Source: an uncultured Bdellovibrionales bacterium | GTDB taxonomy: Bacteria; Patescibacteriota; Minisyncoccia; Moranbacterales; UBA1568 | Length of the DNA stretch: 39,517 nt | Assembly (NCBI GenBank): GCA_964500865.1 | Contig: CAZCQJ010000003.1 | Location: forward strand, 33,812-73,328 | Reading direction: 5' to 3' | Shown: positions 158-38,660 of the stretch, piece by piece | Layout: every line of letters starts with the position of its first letter | How positions within the stretch are numbered: the stretch's first letter is position 1 | Translations under genes and position numbers: made by a program | The notes under the pieces: model-generated | Seen by the model: only the letters and a program-made list of their open reading frames with translations | Told to the model about the DNA's origin: nothing | The model's database searches: none

Positions 158-433
158 ATAAATAATGTACGACTTAGCCAGTTCAAAACGGTTCGCCTTC
201 ACCAGGTTACGTTCTACAATATCCTGAATATCTTCGACACTCGGTACACGGTGTACAAAAATTTCTGTGTACACGTGTTCAATATCATGCACGATACCGT
301 CTACCAAAGTAGGAATAAATGCCTGGTCTGTTTCGCCCGTAGCATCACATGCCAAACGAATTGCCTCTTCGATGCGGCTGCGGTCAAAAGGAATAAGTTC
401 TCCATCTCTTCGTCGTACTTTATCAATAGCCAT
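150..433 (-). CDS. Ribonucleotide reductase, N-terminal ATP-cone only (truncated at the composition break near 150)
   Basis: ATG at 433-431. Own translation: MAIDKVRRRDGELIPFDRSRIEEAIRLACDATGETDQAFIPTLVDGIVHDIEHVYTEIFVHRVPSVEDIQDIVERNLVKANRFELAKSYIIYRAK, a typical ATP-cone. The frame then runs stop-free into G+C-rich sequence with no protein-like character. Not in the ORF track because it has no stop in the window. Confidence 0.6.
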
Positions 434-445
434 AGTTGTTTTTAT

Positions 446-1018
446 TTATGCGGTAAGTCGGTTTGCTACTACGTCCCAATCAATGTGTTTCAAAAAGTTC
501 TGTATATAGTCGGCGCGCTTGATTCCATAGTCTGTAAGAAACGCGTGTTCGAAGACGTCCATGATGAGCAATATTTTTGTGCCTGCCAAGATGCCCATGT
601 CATGCTCATTTACCCACGTGGTAAAAATCTTTTCAGCACTCTCGTCGTAGGTCATTACCACCCAACCGATCCCCCGCATTGTCCCTGTCCCCACAAACTG
701 TGTCTGCCATTCCGCGAAGCTTTCGTACGTGGCGTTCAGTTTTTCTAAAAGTTCTCCACTTGGCTCGGCCGTCACTTCCTTCGTCATGTTCTCGAAGTAC
801 AGCTCGTGTAGACGCATCCCGTTCCATTCCCAGCCGAAGCGTCTTTTGAGCTCAGCGTATTCTGGAGTGCCCGGCGCCATCGTTTCGAGTTTTTCGATGA
901 GCGTATTCGTATTGTTTACGTACCCCTCGTACAACGTAAAGTGATTATTCAGCAGCGTATCCGAGAAGCCTTCCGTACCGAGGAGCGCACTAAAATCTTT
1001 TTTGGTATATGTTGCCAT
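446..1018 (-). CDS. Fe/Mn superoxide dismutase family protein
   Basis: 190-aa ORF. C-terminal MDVFEHAFLTDYG matches the D-x-W-E-H-A-Y-Y metal-ligand motif region. N-terminal HFTLYEGYVNNTN and LHELYFENM resemble the SOD helical hairpin. Confidence 0.75.
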   Translation of the reverse strand: MATYTKKDFSALLGTEGFSDTLLNNHFTLYEGYVNNTNTLIEKLETMAPGTPEYAELKRRFGWEWNGMRLHELYFENMTKEVTAEPSGELLEKLNATYESFAEWQTQFVGTGTMRGIGWVVMTYDESAEKIFTTWVNEHDMGILAGTKILLIMDVFEHAFLTDYGIKRADYIQNFLKHIDWDVVANRLTA

Positions 1019-3418: not shown

Positions 3419-3731
3419 GCCGAGGTAGCTCAGTGGTAGAGCAGAGGACTGAATTTCGGTCCCTCTCATAGTGATATGGGATGAGAAAAATCGGGTGAAT
3501 TCGGGGAAACCTACGTTCAGATATTCTGAATATGGCAATCTCGAGCCAACTCCTAAAGGGCAATATGGTTTTAGGAAAGGTGTAGAGACTAGTAAGTGAG
3601 TCCCAACAATACTCTTACAAAAGCGCCCGACTTCTTAGTAAAGAAGATGAGATAGTCCAATCCTTGGGGAAACTCAAGTAAGTGCGTAAAGGAAAATCCT
3701 TGTGTCGGCAGTTCGATCCTGCCCCTCGGCA
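3419..3731 (+). tRNA. tRNA-Phe(GAA) interrupted by a 241-nt group I intron in the anticodon loop (exons 3419-3450 and 3692-3731)
   Basis: The joined exons GCCGAGGTAGCTCAGTGGTAGAGCAGAGGACT + GAAAATCCTTGTGTCGGCAGTTCGATCCTGCCCCTCGGCA give a perfect cloverleaf close to E. coli tRNA-Phe: acceptor GCCGAGG/CCTCGGC, loop CTGAAAA. Confidence 0.9.
3451..3691 (+). ncRNA. Group I (IC3-like) self-splicing intron, no internal ORF
   Basis: The 5' exon ends in U, and GGACU pairs with the internal guide GGUCC (3458-3462), giving the U-G wobble of P1. The intron ends in G (3691). Core strings AAUUCGGGGAAACCUA, UAUGGCAAUCUCGAGCCAA and AAGGUGUAGAGACUAG match the Azoarcus/cyanobacterial tRNA-intron core as I recall it. 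Confidence 0.85.
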
Positions 3732-3777
3732 CAATAATGAACCCATGGTATACTGATAATATCATGGGTTTTGTTTT

Positions 3778-35000: not shown

Positions 35001-36014
35001 TTACAAGAGTTTTTGCTGATGATCCTTAGGTACTTCTTTGCCCACATGGGCGTAGCCCTCTGGCGTTACTACCCGGCCGCGCGGTGTTCGTGCTAAAAAG
35101 CCAAGTTGAATCAGGTAGGGTTCATACACTTCTTCGATGGTCGAGGCCTCTTCGCCAGTAATGGCGGCAAGTGCTTGGATGCCAACAGGCCCACCCTTGT
35201 ATTTTTCGATGAGGGTCGTAAGAATATGGCGGTCGGTTGGCTCGAGACCCAGGTAGTCGACTTCAAAAAGCTTGAGGGCTTCTTGCGTCAGGTCTTCGGT
35301 GATCACGTTATCGCCATGAATCTGAACGTAGTCACGGACACGTTTGAGGATGCGGTTTGCGATACGGGGTGTTTGGCGGCTCGCATGGGCCACAGCAGTA
35401 GCACCGGCCGAGTCGATAGGCACACCCAAGAGGTGCGACGATCGCGTAACGATTTTGCCGATTTCATCCGGGCTGTAGAATTCAAGTTTGTGCGTGGAGC
35501 CAAAACGGTTCCTTAGTGGCTGGCTGAGTGATCCAAGTTTGGTGGTAGCGCCAATCAGGGTAAAGCGTGGTAGGTCGAGCTGTATAGTCCTTGCAGCAGG
35601 GCCTTTACCAATAATGATGTCGAGCTTAAAGTCTTCCATGGCGGGGTAGAGCACCTCCTCGATATTCTTATTCAGGCGGTGGATTTCGTCGATAAACAGC
35701 ACATCACCTGGCTCAAGGTTGGTGAGGATCGAGCCTAAGTCACCGACTTTTTCGATGGCGGGGCCACTGGTAATGCGGATATTTACCCCCATTTCTTTGG
35801 CGATAATGTGTGCCAGGGTGGTTTTCCCAAGTCCGGCTGAGCCATAGAGCAGCACGTGGTCGATATTTTCGCCGCGTTTCTTGGCAGCCTCGATAAATAA
35901 ACCCAGATTGCGCTTGATTTTCTCTTGCCCAACGTATTCGTCAAAGTGTTTCGGACGAAGTGCGTTGTCGATTTGAATGTCTTCTGGTAATACTTGGTCG
36001 CTTTGGGTTATCAT
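35001..36014 (-). CDS. ruvB: Holliday junction branch-migration helicase RuvB
   Basis: [13 protein letters not shown], Walker [12 protein letters not shown], Walker [16 protein letters not shown] near the C-terminus. ATG at 36014. Confidence 0.96.
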
Positions 36015-36103
36015 AGGGGTCTTTTTTTGTAGTATAGCAGTTTTTTGGGGTGCTGACGAACCGTAGGGAAGAAACAATGGCTTACATAAGCCACGCTAAC
36101 CCC

Positions 36104-36132
36104 TTGACAAGATTCTTTTCCTATGCTAAGCT
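36104..36132 (+). promoter_or_regulatory. Candidate promoter TTGACA-17-TAAGCT pointing into the gene-free locus
   Basis: TTGACA at 36104-36109, 17-nt spacer, TAAGCT at 36127-36132. Orientation is opposite to both flanking operons. Confidence 0.4.
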
Positions 36133-36139
36133 ACTTAGT

Positions 36140-36800
36140 CGACTTGAGAAAGTTGGCAATTAAAAATCTTGGAGCGTCTCTTTCTGTGAGTATCTGTATA
36201 CTTTTAGAAAGAGGCGTTTCCATTTCGGTCGGACGCGTCTTCGAGCCCAGGTGACTCGGCGTGATTCCACAATCACGAAGCTTCTGTAGTGAGCCCCCTT
36301 AAGGCAAAACTACAGCACTGATTCCTTGTGGGAGAGGTCGGTGAAAAAAAGCGGGTAGGGCTACGCGGTGTGGTCTTACAAAGATACGAGTCTTTCCATG
36401 GTAGCTCCATAGGACTTGTAGAGGATAGCGTATCGAACCTGTTTAGGTATATTCGTGCGTGAGTGTTCTTGACCGGACAACGAAGGAACGCTGTAGTTTT
36501 GGTCGTAGGCATACGATTGGAACGCAGATGCTTTCTCCTCAGGGTGGTAGTTGGTAACGTTCCAAATGCCGCCCACCCTCATAGGATGCATATCCTATCT
36601 GATGAGTCCAAAAGGACGAAAGGGAAAATATTTCTTTTACATCTGTAGACAGTTTGGAGGGGCTCTATCTTTTCTCTTCAAATATGGGCAGCTGTTTCCA
36701 GACATGGGTAGGGGGGTTTCGGCTCTGCTATTCCTCGATTGGCTGGCTTTCCTGGGGTTCCTATATTCCGGGGTGTGTCTACAGCTTTAAGTGAGATAGC
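36140..36800 (+). ncRNA. Candidate roughly 660-nt structured RNA of unknown class containing the hammerhead
   Basis: No credible ORF. Many local hairpins: 36171-36220 GGAGCGTCTCTTTCT/AGAAAGAGGCGTTTCC; 36284-36315 CTGTAGT/ACTACAG; long-range CTGTAGAC 36643-36650 / GTCTACAG 36777-36784. Bounded by a promoter-like site and a terminator. Confidence 0.3.
36576..36624 (+). ncRNA. Hammerhead self-cleaving ribozyme, type III topology
   Basis: CCCUC^AUAGGAU-GCAU-AUCCUAU-CUGAUGA-GUCC-AAAA-GGAC-GAAA-GGG. All core nucleotides are present (C3 U4 G5 A6 N7 G8 A9, G12 A13 A14, A15.1-U16.1, C17). Closed stems I (7 bp) and II (4 bp), open stem III (4 bp). Predicted cleavage between 36580 and 36581. Confidence 0.8.
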
Positions 36801-36837
36801 AAAAACACGCTTTGTAAAAAGCGTGTTTTTTGTTTGT
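36801..36837. terminator. Bidirectional rho-independent terminator
   Basis: 13-bp perfect stem AAAAACACGCTTT-GTAA-AAAGCGTGTTTTT with T/A runs on both sides. Serves pilB (minus strand) and the plus-strand locus. Confidence 0.7.
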
Positions 36838-36854: not shown

Positions 36855-38660
36855 CTACTTCGTGACTGACGTGGGTTCTTGCGGCGCCTCGGCCAGAATA
36901 TCTTGGTAAAAACTTTCTAAGGATTCTTCCATGCCTGTATGACGGACCACTTCTTCAAGGGTGGTAATGCCTTCGATACATTTAATAACGCCGTCTTCCA
37001 CTAAGCTCATCATGCCCTCTTGTTTAGCAAGGGCCCGAATGGCGGCTTCGCCGGGGTGTGTGGCGAGCAGCGCATTCATGGCCGTGGTAACCGAGAAGAC
37101 TTCGTAGACACCGATGCGGCCTTTGTAGCCAGTGAAGTGACACTGGGCGCAACCGACGGCGGCCGCCAGAGTTTCGACGGTAGTTGGTACGGTGTCGCGG
37201 ACGGCTGGTGAAATATTCTGGAGGATTTTTAAGAAAGCCTCTTTGGTTTTTTCGGCAGGGACGTAGGTGCGCTTGCAGGACGAGCACAGGGTACGTACCA
37301 AGCGCTGGGCGATAAAGATATTTACGGCGCTCCCGATGAGACTGGCGTCGATGCCGAGCTCCTGAAGACGAATGATAGAAGCGGGTGCATCGTTGGTGTG
37401 GAGGGTTGAGAAGACAAGGTGACCAGTGAGCGAGGCATTGAGGGCGATGTTGGCGGTCTCGCCATCACGGATTTCTCCGACGAGGATAACATCTGGGTCT
37501 TGGCGCACGATGGCGCGCAGCGCGTCAGCAAAGCTGTAGCCCACGGCACCCATGTTCATCGCGTTATTCATAGCTTCCATACCAGTGGTTGCCTGGTGGG
37601 CCGTCACCTGAGTCTGCACGATGCCAGCTAAGTGATATTCGATAGGGTCTTCAACCGTAATAATTTTGAGCGAAGGTGAATTAATGCTGTTGAGCAAACT
37701 GTAGAGCGTGGTGGTTTTTCCGCTTCCGGTTGGACCAGTGTTTAAGATAAGGCCGTTTGGTTTGGCGGCCTGCTTTTGAATTTCTTCGAGCACCTTTGGA
37801 CGCATACCAAGCTTACTAATAGATACGAAGATGTCGGTGTCTACTAAGAGTCGCATGTTAATGTTCTCGCCGTACTGGCCAGGAATAACGCTGACGCGAA
37901 TATCGATGCGCTTGCCGTCGACGGTCATTTCGAAGTGGCCATCTTGGGCGCGGTCACGCACATTGAGTTTCATTTTTGCGAGCAGCTTGATGCGCGACAA
38001 AAGCAGGCGGTACAGCACCGTCGGGAGCATGCCAATATCTTGGAGTTCGCCATCAACACGGAAGCGTAGGCGTGCTTCGTCCTCGCTGGTTTCGATATGG
38101 ATGTCGCTCGAATCAAACTGCATGGCACCCGCTAGAATAGTTTCCATGGCGTGAGTGGTCGCGGTGCGGTCGCCGGTGCGAGAAAGCTCGATTAGGGCAC
38201 CAAAATCTTTATCAAAATTTTTGAGATCTTCGCCAGAGAGCGTGACGCGCATACGGTCAAGTTGCTCGATGAAGGGGTGCTCGCGGTATATTTCTAGGGC
38301 GTACTGCAGGGAGTGCTCGGAGGCTACAAAGAACCGGAGTGAAGCGTTTTCTGCTTCGGTCTTCGCCTGGAGCTCAGCAATAACAGGGGCTGACGGCTGG
38401 TGCAGGGCGATGTAAATAGTATCGTTATCGCGGCGAAACGCAATAGCAGAAAGGCGCTCAGCATCTGCTTGCGGGAGCCAGAAGAGATCGTTGGTTTTGA
38501 GAGGGAAGAGTGTGAGGTCAATATAGGAAAGGCCAAGTTGTGCCGCCAGACGCTCTGCTTCGGCCTCGAGTGATTTTGCTTTGAGGTCCGCCAAAACAAC
38601 ATCGGCTTTTTTAGACGTAGTCGAGAGATTGGTTTGACGTGGAGGAACAATAGTAACCAT
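36855..38660 (-). CDS. PilB/GspE-family type IV pilus / T2SS assembly ATPase
   Basis: T2SSE N-domain, Walker A GPTGSGKTTT, Asp box, Walker B ILVGEIRD, His box, tetra-Cys (CSSC...CAQC). Confidence 0.9.
   Translation of the reverse strand: MVTIVPPRQTNLSTTSKKADVVLADLKAKSLEAEAERLAAQLGLSYIDLTLFPLKTNDLFWLPQADAERLSAIAFRRDNDTIYIALHQPSAPVIAELQAKTEAENASLRFFVASEHSLQYALEIYREHPFIEQLDRMRVTLSGEDLKNFDKDFGALIELSRTGDRTATTHAMETILAGAMQFDSSDIHIETSEDEARLRFRVDGELQDIGMLPTVLYRLLLSRIKLLAKMKLNVRDRAQDGHFEMTVDGKRIDIRVSVIPGQYGENINMRLLVDTDIFVSISKLGMRPKVLEEIQKQAAKPNGLILNTGPTGSGKTTTLYSLLNSINSPSLKIITVEDPIEYHLAGIVQTQVTAHQATTGMEAMNNAMNMGAVGYSFADALRAIVRQDPDVILVGEIRDGETANIALNASLTGHLVFSTLHTNDAPASIIRLQELGIDASLIGSAVNIFIAQRLVRTLCSSCKRTYVPAEKTKEAFLKILQNISPAVRDTVPTTVETLAAAVGCAQCHFTGYKGRIGVYEVFSVTTAMNALLATHPGEAAIRALAKQEGMMSLVEDGVIKCIEGITTLEEVVRHTGMEESLESFYQDILAEAPQEPTSVTK

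What the first reader, a model, noticed from the sequence alone, without database searches (positions are those of the whole stretch)
36576..36624. Canonical type III hammerhead ribozyme in an intergenic region, antisense to both flanking operons
- All invariant hammerhead nucleotides are in place: CUGAUGA, G10.1-C11.1 closing a GUCC/GGAC stem II with an AAAA loop, GAAA, an A15.1-U16.1 pair and C17.
- Stem I is a perfect 7-bp hairpin (AUAGGAU/AUCCUAU, GCAU loop) directly abutting the core.
- Stem III is short: A-U plus three G-C pairs.
- An upstream AGGGUGG (36541-36547) can alternatively pair with CCACCCU (36574-36580). That pairing would sequester the cleavage-site strand, giving a possible on/off conformational switch.
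- The ribozyme is on the plus strand, while ruvB and pilB are both on the minus strand. It therefore needs its own transcript.
- A near-consensus promoter at 36104 and a terminator at 36801 bracket it.
Basis: partly seen in the sequence, partly recalled or inferred. Interest (0 to 1): 0.7.

Follow-up and report, generated by a model that had tools for sequence, protein, structure and literature searches.

The report
Hammerhead ribozyme ahead of a small RNA
A textbook self-cutting RNA (a type III hammerhead ribozyme) sits just in front of a conserved, previously undescribed small RNA gene in an uncultivated Patescibacteria bacterium, and it probably trims a long, lineage-specific leader off that small RNA.

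Summary
The motif is real and lies at 36576-36624 (+). All hammerhead core nucleotides are present, with three helices and C17 at 36580. The predicted cut is between 36580 and 36581.

- **Not chance:** a loose descriptor found no hit in 120 Mb of composition-matched random sequence.
- **Under selection:** a relative (L009, flanks 83-88% identical) has the same core, stem II and stem III. Its stem I carries two compensatory pair changes.
- **Rfam:** the hammerhead type III model stays below its gathering score of 48.5 bits. It gives 17.6 bits here (misaligned) and 29.7 bits in L009 (correctly aligned).

The ribozyme is not an orphan. It ends 4 nt before a ~170-nt structured small RNA (36629-36798) that has no Rfam family. 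This RNA has its own conserved promoter (36104-36132) and terminator (36801-36835). It lies between ruvB and pilB in nine related lineages (60 predicted pairs, 14 with compensatory changes).

Seven outgroup lineages lack a hammerhead: five have short leaders and two carry an unrelated ~400-nt insert. The hammerhead occurs only in one clade, with leaders of ~100 nt (L009) and ~440 nt (window). A sister lineage has deleted it.

Best reading: it works as a natural 5'-leader-removing "insulator". Cleavage itself is untested. The hammerhead is a new member of a known class, in an unusual context.

The parts
36104..36132 (+). Sigma-70-type promoter of the small-RNA transcription unit: TTGACA, 17 nt, extended -10 TGcTAAGCT. 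The inferred transcription start is near 36139.
   Evidence: Read from the sequence. TTGACA-17 nt-TAnnnT is found at the same place in all relatives (L004, L009, L010, L011, L014, L015, L020, L022, L023).
36138..36157 (+). 5'-terminal hairpin of the transcript (GUCGACUU GAGA AAGUUGGC). It is shared with L009.
   Evidence: Predicted folds; alignment A2.
36158..36541 (+). Lineage-specific, highly structured leader. It is absent from L004-type relatives, replaced by about 70 unrelated nt in L009, and absent from the outgroups.
   Evidence: Indel against relatives. The whole transcript folds with z = -8.7. Outside one hypervariable hairpin, 11 of 12 paired-site differences between strains keep the pairing. 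No consistent ORF: there is a 2-nt indel between strains.
36542..36574 (+). Hairpin directly abutting the hammerhead: GGGUGGUA/UGCCGCCC plus UUGG/CCAA.
   Evidence: Minimum-energy folds. Two strain substitutions keep the pairing: 36548 U-G to C-G and 36571 G-U to A-U.
36576..36624 (+). Type III hammerhead ribozyme motif. Predicted cleavage is between C36580 and A36581. Stem III 36576-79/36621-24; stem I 36581-87/36592-98; core 36599-605 and 36618-20; stem II 36606-09/36614-17.
   Evidence: Rfam RF00008 gives a sub-threshold match.
36629..36798 (+). Conserved structured small RNA with no Rfam family. Helices: P1 36629-39/36788-98, P2 36643-51/36776-84, P3 36652-62/36674-83, P4 36686-94/36740-48, P5 36701-17/36722-36, P6 36750-58/36765-73.
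   Evidence: About 99-100% identical to relatives whose coding genes are about 87% identical. Consensus structure with 60 pairs, 14 of them with compensatory changes, in 9 lineages. Indels are not multiples of 3. No Rfam match at E<=10.
36801..36835 (.). Bidirectional intrinsic terminator. It ends the small-RNA transcript on the plus strand and lies just downstream of pilB on the minus strand.
   Evidence: The stem sequence differs in relatives but pairing is kept at the same position.
35001..36014 (-). ruvB, transcribed divergently from the small RNA. It has its own promoter-like site TGCTATACT at 36039-36031.
36855..38660 (-). pilB / GspE-family ATPase, convergent with the small RNA.

Best explanation
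**What it is.** The element is a cis-acting type III hammerhead ribozyme in the 5' leader of a conserved, independently transcribed small RNA. The host is a Moranbacteria-like member of the Patescibacteria.

**The transcript.** Transcription starts near 36139 from the promoter at 36104-36132. It runs through a ~440-nt lineage-specific structured leader, then the hammerhead, then the ~170-nt small RNA, and stops at the terminator at 36801-36835.

**Proposed cleavage (inferred).** The hammerhead folds and cleaves between C36580 and A36581. This releases:
- the leader, carrying a 2',3'-cyclic phosphate;
- the small RNA, carrying a 5'-OH and a short, constant 48-nt 5' extension (the ribozyme body plus AAAA).

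That extension is similar in size to the 25-40-nt native leaders of relatives that have no ribozyme.

**Proposed role.** The ribozyme acts as a natural insulator. It uncouples the conserved small RNA from variable sequence that has accumulated between its promoter and its body. It may equally serve to release two separate non-coding RNAs from one promoter.

**Shown here:**
- the motif, its conservation and its covariation;
- the transcription-unit signals;
- the small RNA and its structure;
- the presence or absence of the ribozyme across lineages.

**Inferred only:** cleavage itself, the chemistry of the ends, and the benefit to the cell.
For: **Motif**
- It is complete and not a chance match.
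- The hammerhead fold is the energy minimum both in isolation and within the full transcript. In the full transcript it coexists with the consensus fold of the small RNA.

**Conservation in L009**
- L009's flanking DNA is 83-88% identical to the window.
- It has an identical core, stem II and C17, and a longer 6-bp stem III.
- Stem I shows A-U to C-G at 1.1/2.1 and U-A to A-U at 1.2/2.2. The loop also changes. The sequence upstream of the ribozyme cannot be aligned.
- Rfam RF00008 aligns the L009 copy correctly at 29.7 bits, E = 2e-4.

**Position and distribution**
- The ribozyme ends 4 nt before P1 of a small RNA supported by 14 covarying pairs.
- Promoter and terminator are conserved in every relative.
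- The hammerhead is present in one clade only, with leaders of about 440 nt (window, L005-L008) and about 100 nt (L009).
- It is absent from short-leader lineages L010, L011, L014, L020 and L023.
- It is also absent from L004/L017-L019. There the leader is about 35 nt, and the ribozyme appears to have been deleted between GAAAAT repeats.

**Background**
- Type III hammerheads cut near their own 5' end, so almost nothing of the ribozyme stays on the upstream piece (established hammerhead knowledge).
Against: - No cleavage or transcript data are available.
- The Rfam score is below the gathering threshold in both lineages.
- Only two independent hammerhead sequences exist, so the covariation statistics are weak: 56 of 500 shuffles reach the observed value.
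- The invariant core adjoins a small RNA that is itself about 100% conserved. Core identity is therefore not independent evidence.
- Stem III in the window has only 4 bp and about 10% ensemble probability in the full transcript.
- In L009 the minimum-energy fold of the full transcript disrupts the hammerhead.
- No loop I-loop II tertiary contact could be identified, and loop I is not conserved (GCAU versus GUGA).
- L015 and L022 carry a comparably long leader insert without any hammerhead. A long leader therefore does not strictly require a ribozyme.
- L004-type strains lost the ribozyme, so it is dispensable.
Confidence: 0.6

Rival explanations
1. **Regulated ribozyme switch.** The long leader senses a signal (a ligand, a protein or temperature). 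Through alternative pairing it decides whether stem III forms. Cleavage would then control the level or form of the small RNA.
For: - Alternative pairings exist.
- GAAAGGGA can pair with the small RNA's UUUCUUUU.
- In L009, AUUUUCC pairs with GGGAAAAU in the centroid fold.
- Stem III has low ensemble probability.
- The leader looks to be under selection for structure.
Against: - Strain substitutions support the non-competing register 36542-49/36567-74.
- The full-transcript energy minimum already contains the active fold, with no energy penalty for enforcing it.
- The leaders of the two hammerhead-bearing lineages are unrelated in sequence, so no conserved sensor exists.
- No riboswitch or other Rfam family matches.
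Confidence: 0.15
2. **Inactive or structural relic.** The two hairpins and the core-like sequence are kept as a structural 5' module of the small RNA, or are simply young. They do not self-cleave in the cell.
For: - The Rfam score is sub-threshold.
- Stem III is short and no tertiary contact is evident.
- The ribozyme was lost without loss of the small RNA in L004/L017-L019.
- The conserved core adjoins an ultra-conserved small RNA.
Against: - Every one of the roughly 13 invariant core positions, H17 and the A15.1-U16.1 and G10.1-C11.1 pairs are intact in two lineages that differ at 7 of 18 stem I/loop positions.
- All stem I changes are compensatory.
- A structural hairpin module would not need the CUGAUGA...GAAA core.
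Confidence: 0.15
3. **Ribozyme brought in by an inserted element.** The hammerhead arrived as the 3' end of an inserted, possibly mobile, RNA-encoding element. It serves that element by defining its 3' end or limiting harm to the host gene, rather than serving the small RNA.
For: - The hammerhead lies exactly at the 3' edge of the indel relative to L004.
- It is restricted to one clade, while the outgroups lack it.
- The same leader position has taken up unrelated inserts in other lineages.
- Many bacterial hammerheads are associated with prophages and integrases (PMC3088659).
Against: - There is no second copy of the insert in the window or in any fetched locus.
- There are no matches in the phage or plasmid collections or in viral contigs.
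- No integrase or transposase lies nearby, and there are no terminal repeats.
- The sequence upstream of the ribozyme differs completely between the two hammerhead-bearing lineages. The unit that is conserved is therefore the ribozyme plus the small RNA, not the insert plus the ribozyme.
Confidence: 0.08
4. **Chance match.** The sequence matches the hammerhead consensus by accident in an intergenic region.
For: The first stage scanned many windows, and the Rfam score here is only 17.6 bits.
Against: - 0 hits to a much looser descriptor in 120 Mb of random sequence.
- Conservation with compensatory changes in L009.
Confidence: 0.02

Closest known systems
Bacterial type III hammerhead ribozymes (Rfam RF00008, clan CL00010; Perreault et al. 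2011, PMC3088659)
   Same: - Identical catalytic core: CUGAUGA, GAA, H17, and the A15.1-U16.1 and G10.1-C11.1 pairs.
- Stems I and II are closed by loops and stem III is open.
- It lies in a bacterial intergenic region.
   Different: - The score is below the family's gathering threshold. Stem III is very short (4 bp) and the loops are 4 nt each, with no recognisable loop-loop contact or pseudoknot.
- It is not near an integrase or prophage, the common bacterial context.
- The host is a Patescibacteria (candidate phyla radiation) bacterium. The literature search found no hammerhead report for this group.
- It is fused to a conserved small RNA.
RiboJ-type synthetic ribozyme insulators: a hammerhead plus a hairpin placed between a promoter and a gene to normalise the 5' end (described in PMC7536230)
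   Same: - A type III hammerhead sits directly upstream of the functional RNA.
- It would remove variable upstream sequence and leave a constant 5' end.
- It is flanked by a stabilising hairpin.
   Different: - This one is natural rather than engineered.
- The downstream cargo is a non-coding small RNA, not an mRNA.
- Activity is unmeasured.
HDV-like ribozymes at the 5' end of R2 and other non-LTR retrotransposon transcripts (from my own knowledge, not checked here)
   Same: A self-cleaving ribozyme that cuts at its own 5' edge, freeing the downstream RNA from an upstream co-transcript.
   Different: - A different ribozyme class.
- A eukaryotic mobile element.
- Here there is no sign of mobility.
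glmS ribozyme (5'-UTR self-cleaver in bacteria)
   Same: A self-cleaving RNA in a 5' leader whose cut yields a 5'-OH downstream RNA.
   Different: - glmS is a distinct fold that depends on a metabolite cofactor and controls an mRNA.
- No ligand pocket or regulatory logic is evident here.

Membership tests
Hammerhead ribozyme (type III) | Invariant core C3 U4 G5 A6 N7 G8 A9 and G12 A13 A14 | tested here: met
   CUGAUGA at 36599-36605 and GAA at 36618-36620. Identical in L009 and L005-L007.
Hammerhead ribozyme (type III) | Cleavage-site nucleotide H17 (not G), preceded by U16.1 paired to A15.1; G10.1-C11.1 closing stem II | tested here: met
   C36580; U36579-A36621; G36606-C36617.
Hammerhead ribozyme (type III) | Three helices around the core, with stems I and II capped by loops and stem III open (type III topology) | tested here: met
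   Minimum-energy fold; descriptor hit.
Hammerhead ribozyme (type III) | Helices supported by covariation | tested here: inconclusive
   Stem I has 2 compensatory pairs, and 100% of cells are paired against 24-51% when the partners are slid. Stems II and III do not vary. Only 2 independent lineages are available, so the shuffle control is weak (56/500).
Hammerhead ribozyme (type III) | Rfam RF00008 covariance-model score at or above the gathering threshold (48.5 bits) | tested here: not met
   17.6 bits, E = 1.1, misaligned in the window. 29.7 bits, E = 2e-4, correctly aligned in L009. No hit at the gathering threshold.
Hammerhead ribozyme (type III) | Loop I-loop II tertiary contact or pseudoknot needed for fast cleavage at physiological Mg2+ (PMC3088659) | tested here: inconclusive
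   Loop II (AAAA) is conserved. Loop I differs (GCAU versus GUGA). No Watson-Crick pseudoknot is possible between them. Non-canonical contacts cannot be assessed with these tools.
Hammerhead ribozyme (type III) | Site-specific Mg2+-dependent self-cleavage giving 2',3'-cyclic phosphate and 5'-OH ends | not testable with these tools
   Needs an in vitro assay or end-specific RNA sequencing.
Known Rfam small-RNA or riboswitch families (for the downstream 170-nt RNA) | A match to any of the 4227 Rfam 15 covariance models | tested here: not met
   Over 36626-36800 the only match at E<=10 is a weak Trp_leader hit (36734-36834, 19.4 bits against a cut-off of 41, E = 0.4) that is driven by the terminator hairpin. 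The L009 and L015 copies likewise give no real match.

The most novel reading that the evidence does not exclude
The locus may be a natural modular non-coding-RNA operon.

- A conserved small RNA specific to these Patescibacteria repeatedly acquires large structured RNA modules between its promoter and its body. Three unrelated kinds of leader sequence were seen (window, L009, L015/L022).
- In one clade a hammerhead was recruited as a built-in insulator. It releases the small RNA, and possibly a second functional ~440-nt RNA, from the common transcript.
- This would be a natural counterpart of RiboJ.
- It would also be one of the few cases where the biological role of a bacterial hammerhead can be read from naturally occurring allelic states: long leader with ribozyme, short leader with ribozyme, and short leader with the ribozyme deleted.
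Probability: 0.35. Interest if true: 0.65.

Novelty: new member of a known kind. Interest (0 to 1): 0.5.

Why it matters
- **An open question becomes testable.** The functions of the hundreds of bacterial hammerheads are still largely unproven (PMC3088659). Here the ribozyme's position points to a concrete role: removing the 5' leader of a small RNA, or separating two non-coding RNAs. It lies 4 nt upstream of a strongly conserved small RNA. It is present only in the clade whose leaders are about 100 nt and about 440 nt, and it has been cleanly deleted in a sister lineage whose leader is about 35 nt.
- **New host group.** It adds a ribozyme to the Patescibacteria (candidate phyla radiation), where I found no prior hammerhead report.
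- **A new RNA.** It exposes an undescribed, well-supported structured small RNA family, together with a hot spot for RNA-module insertion.

Tried and rejected
**Searches that found nothing useful**
1. Rfam at gathering threshold over the whole window: no ribozyme.
2. Genome-contig scan with PilB: only 33-39% identical relatives, no help.
3. Metagenome scan with a 20-mer from the small RNA: 0 hits, because the collection lacks these samples. A second scan with the most conserved 23-mer gave one true distant homologue (L020, no hammerhead) and one chance hit (L021).
4. Viral-contig scan for the hammerhead sequence: 0 hits.
5. blastn of the whole transcript against the phage and plasmid collections: no match.
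6. Literature searches for hammerhead plus candidate phyla radiation or Patescibacteria: nothing relevant.

**Readings considered and rejected**
7. The 62-aa ORF called by JGI at about 36602-36790 is not a gene. Its ATG is the AUG inside CUGAUGA, and it has one database cluster with 2 members. L004 opens a different frame, and the outgroups have 1-nt indels.
8. The ~480-nt indel is not a group I or group II intron. There is no Rfam hit at E<=10. The boundaries are not a clean insertion, because L004 has 18 other nt that are homologous to the L009 leader.
9. The L015/L022 leader insert is not homologous to the window's leader (no blastn similarity). It carries no hammerhead or other Rfam ribozyme.

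**Technical note**
10. A first attempt at the strain-difference analysis failed on a coordinate bug and was redone.

Full report
**1. The observation**

The sequence at 36576-36624 (+) reads CCCU C AUAGGAU GCAU AUCCUAU CUGAUGA GUCC AAAA GGAC GAA AGGG. This is a complete type III hammerhead:
- stem III, 36576-79 with 36621-24 (U16.1-A15.1 plus three C-G pairs);
- C17 at 36580;
- a 7-bp stem I hairpin;
- the CUGAUGA and GAA core strands;
- a 4-bp stem II closed by G10.1-C11.1.

The isolated 61-mer folds into exactly this junction. A descriptor search I wrote finds it as the only type III hammerhead in the window. The same search, with looser limits than the observed motif, found none in 120 Mb of composition-matched random sequence. 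An even looser version run over all 160 kb fetched found only the orthologous copies and two obviously weak hits.

**2. Covariance models**

- Rfam 15 reports no ribozyme at gathering thresholds.
- With permissive settings RF00008 gives 17.6 bits (gathering score 48.5, E = 1.1) with a wrong alignment that skips stem I.
- On the orthologous copy in L009 the same model gives 29.7 bits, E = 2e-4. That alignment places stem I, the C3-G8 core, stem II and GAAA correctly.
- The family threshold is therefore not met. The model does recognise the architecture, and the deficit comes from the very short stem III and the 4-nt loops.

**3. Organism and relatives**

- PilB and RuvB homologues place the window in the Patescibacteria, close to Moranbacteria.
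- Contigs of the same population (L005-L008, 98% identical) carry the identical hammerhead.
- Three allelic forms occur among organisms whose RuvB proteins are 99-100% identical but whose DNA is only 83-94% identical:
  1. the window type, with about 440 nt between the transcription start and the ribozyme;
  2. L009, with about 100 nt;
  3. the L004/L017-L019 type, with a leader of about 35 nt and no hammerhead.
- In L009 the core, stem II, C17 and stem III are unchanged, and stem III is even extended to 6 bp.
- Stem I in L009 is CAAGGAU-GUGA-AUCCUUG, against AUAGGAU-GCAU-AUCCUAU in the window. Both closing pairs have changed on both sides and the loop has changed. All 45 pair cells remain standard pairs.
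- The sequence upstream of stem III cannot be aligned between the two lineages.
- With only two independent sequences the formal statistics are weak. Four stem substitutions all falling into two compensated pairs is still unlikely under neutrality; my rough estimate is 0.5-2%.
- The L004-type allele keeps a piece of the L009 leader (AAGGGUYGUYAU). It lacks exactly the segment bounded in L009 by GAAAAT...GGGAAAAT. This is consistent with a deletion of the ribozyme (inference).

**4. What the ribozyme is attached to**

- The 170 nt downstream (36629-36798) are 99-100% identical between lineages whose neighbouring genes are about 87% identical.
- Using RuvB relatives of 82-87% identity and one metagenome hit, I recovered the same locus from six further lineages (L010, L011, L014, L015, L022, L020) and a partial copy (L023).
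- Every one has the arrangement pilB (convergent), terminator, small RNA, strong TTGACA-17 nt-TAnnnT promoter, ruvB (divergent).
- The RNA has a consensus structure of 60 pairs in six helices. Fourteen pairs show compensatory changes among nine sequences.
- Indels of 1 nt, and the lack of a common reading frame, exclude a protein.
- The JGI-called 62-aa ORF starts at the AUG inside CUGAUGA and has a single database cluster.
- No Rfam family matches this RNA. It is therefore an undescribed structured small RNA with its own promoter and a bidirectional terminator shared with pilB.
- The hammerhead ends 4 nt before its outer helix P1.

**5. Distribution and the leader**

- Outgroup lineages L010, L011, L014, L020 and L023 have leaders of about 25-90 nt and no hammerhead.
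- The ribozyme is therefore a gain on the branch leading to the window/L009/L004 clade, followed by one loss.
- The same position in the leader holds an unrelated ~415-nt structured insert in L015 and L022. That insert has no hammerhead and no Rfam ribozyme.
- The window's own leader is highly structured: the whole transcript folds with z = -8.7.
- Outside one hypervariable hairpin, 11 of 12 strain-level substitutions at predicted paired sites keep the pairing. The leader may therefore be functional RNA rather than junk.
- It has no other copy in the window or the loci, and no relatives in the phage, plasmid or viral collections.

**6. Folding context**

- With a start at 36139, the minimum-energy structure of the whole transcript contains three elements side by side: the hairpin 36542-36574, the complete hammerhead, and the consensus fold of the small RNA. 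Enforcing the hammerhead costs 0.0 kcal/mol.
- Stems I and II are highly probable in the ensemble. Stem III is only about 10% probable.
However, the two strain substitutions in this hairpin (36548 and 36571) fit the register 36542-49/36567-74, which leaves stem III free.
- In L009 other competitors appear in the predicted folds.
- A switch can be neither established nor excluded. No conserved sensor exists, because the two leaders are unrelated.

**7. Interpretation**

- The best-supported reading is a self-cleaving hammerhead that cuts the primary transcript at 36580/36581.
- A type III hammerhead leaves only its 5-nt stem III strand on the upstream product. The small RNA would therefore emerge with a constant 48-nt 5' extension and a 5'-OH. 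The variable leader would be released with a cyclic phosphate.
- This is what synthetic RiboJ insulators do. It also resembles the role of HDV-like ribozymes at the 5' ends of R2 elements (my own knowledge).
- Points in favour: the presence/absence pattern, and the juxtaposition of ribozyme and small RNA as the conserved unit.
- Points against: the absence of activity data, the weak stem III, the missing tertiary contact, and the ribozyme-free long leaders of L015/L022.
- Rivals, scored in the rival explanations: a regulated switch, an inactive relic, a ribozyme brought in by an inserted element, and chance.

**8. Novelty**

- Hammerheads of all three topologies are known in bacteria by the hundreds, often near prophage integrases, with functions unproven (PMC3088659).
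- This one is a new member of that class. It occurs in a phylum with no prior report in the searched literature and in an unusual, informative context.
- The accompanying small RNA and the insertion-prone leader are, as far as these tools show, new.

**Verdict:** a real, canonical hammerhead motif under selection. It is probably active as a 5'-processing element, and the result is of moderate interest.

Noticed in passing
window 36629-36798 (+), with promoter 36104-36132 and terminator 36801-36835: An undescribed, strongly conserved structured small RNA of about 170 nt with six helices. Fourteen of its 60 predicted pairs covary across 9 lineages. It always lies between ruvB and pilB in a Moranbacteria-like clade. 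No Rfam family matches it. Notable features are an invariant CU-rich hairpin (CUAUCUUUUCUCUUC) and a G-rich hairpin (GGGUAGGGGGGUUUCGGCUCUGCUAU). Its function is unknown.
   Followed up: partly
L015:173-586 (-) and L022:~175-600 (-); the equivalent position in the window is 36158-36575: The leader of this small RNA is a hot spot for large lineage-specific structured inserts. L015 and L022 share a ~415-nt insert unrelated to the window's leader. It has a conserved 5' long hairpin (GACUAAUCGACUUUGUCGC...) and a conserved 3' GC-rich hairpin followed by UUUCCC. It has no hammerhead and no Rfam match. L023 has a ~50-nt insert.
   Followed up: partly
window 36158-36541 (+): The ~380-nt lineage-specific leader itself looks like a functional structured RNA. 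The transcript folds with z = -8.7. Strain-level substitutions are mostly wobble-preserving transitions in predicted stems, and there is one hypervariable hairpin at about 36353-36379. It has no homologue anywhere else that was searched.
   Followed up: partly
window ~3419-3733 (+): A tRNA gene with a GAA anticodon (tRNA-Phe by eye) is interrupted in its anticodon loop by a group I intron (Rfam RF00028, 75 bits, 3441-3679). ARAGORN does not report this tRNA. It sits in a cluster of tRNA genes (Leu, Val, Met, Gly, Cys, Leu).
   Followed up: partly
window 36855-38660 (-): PilB here is 601 aa. Nearly all of its best database homologues from other Patescibacteria are about 1005-1015 aa, roughly 400 aa longer.
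   Followed up: no
window 36031-36039 (-): ruvB appears to have its own extended -10 promoter (TGCTATACT) only about 17 nt upstream of its ATG at 36014. The motif is conserved in relatives, which suggests a very short or leaderless mRNA.
   Followed up: no
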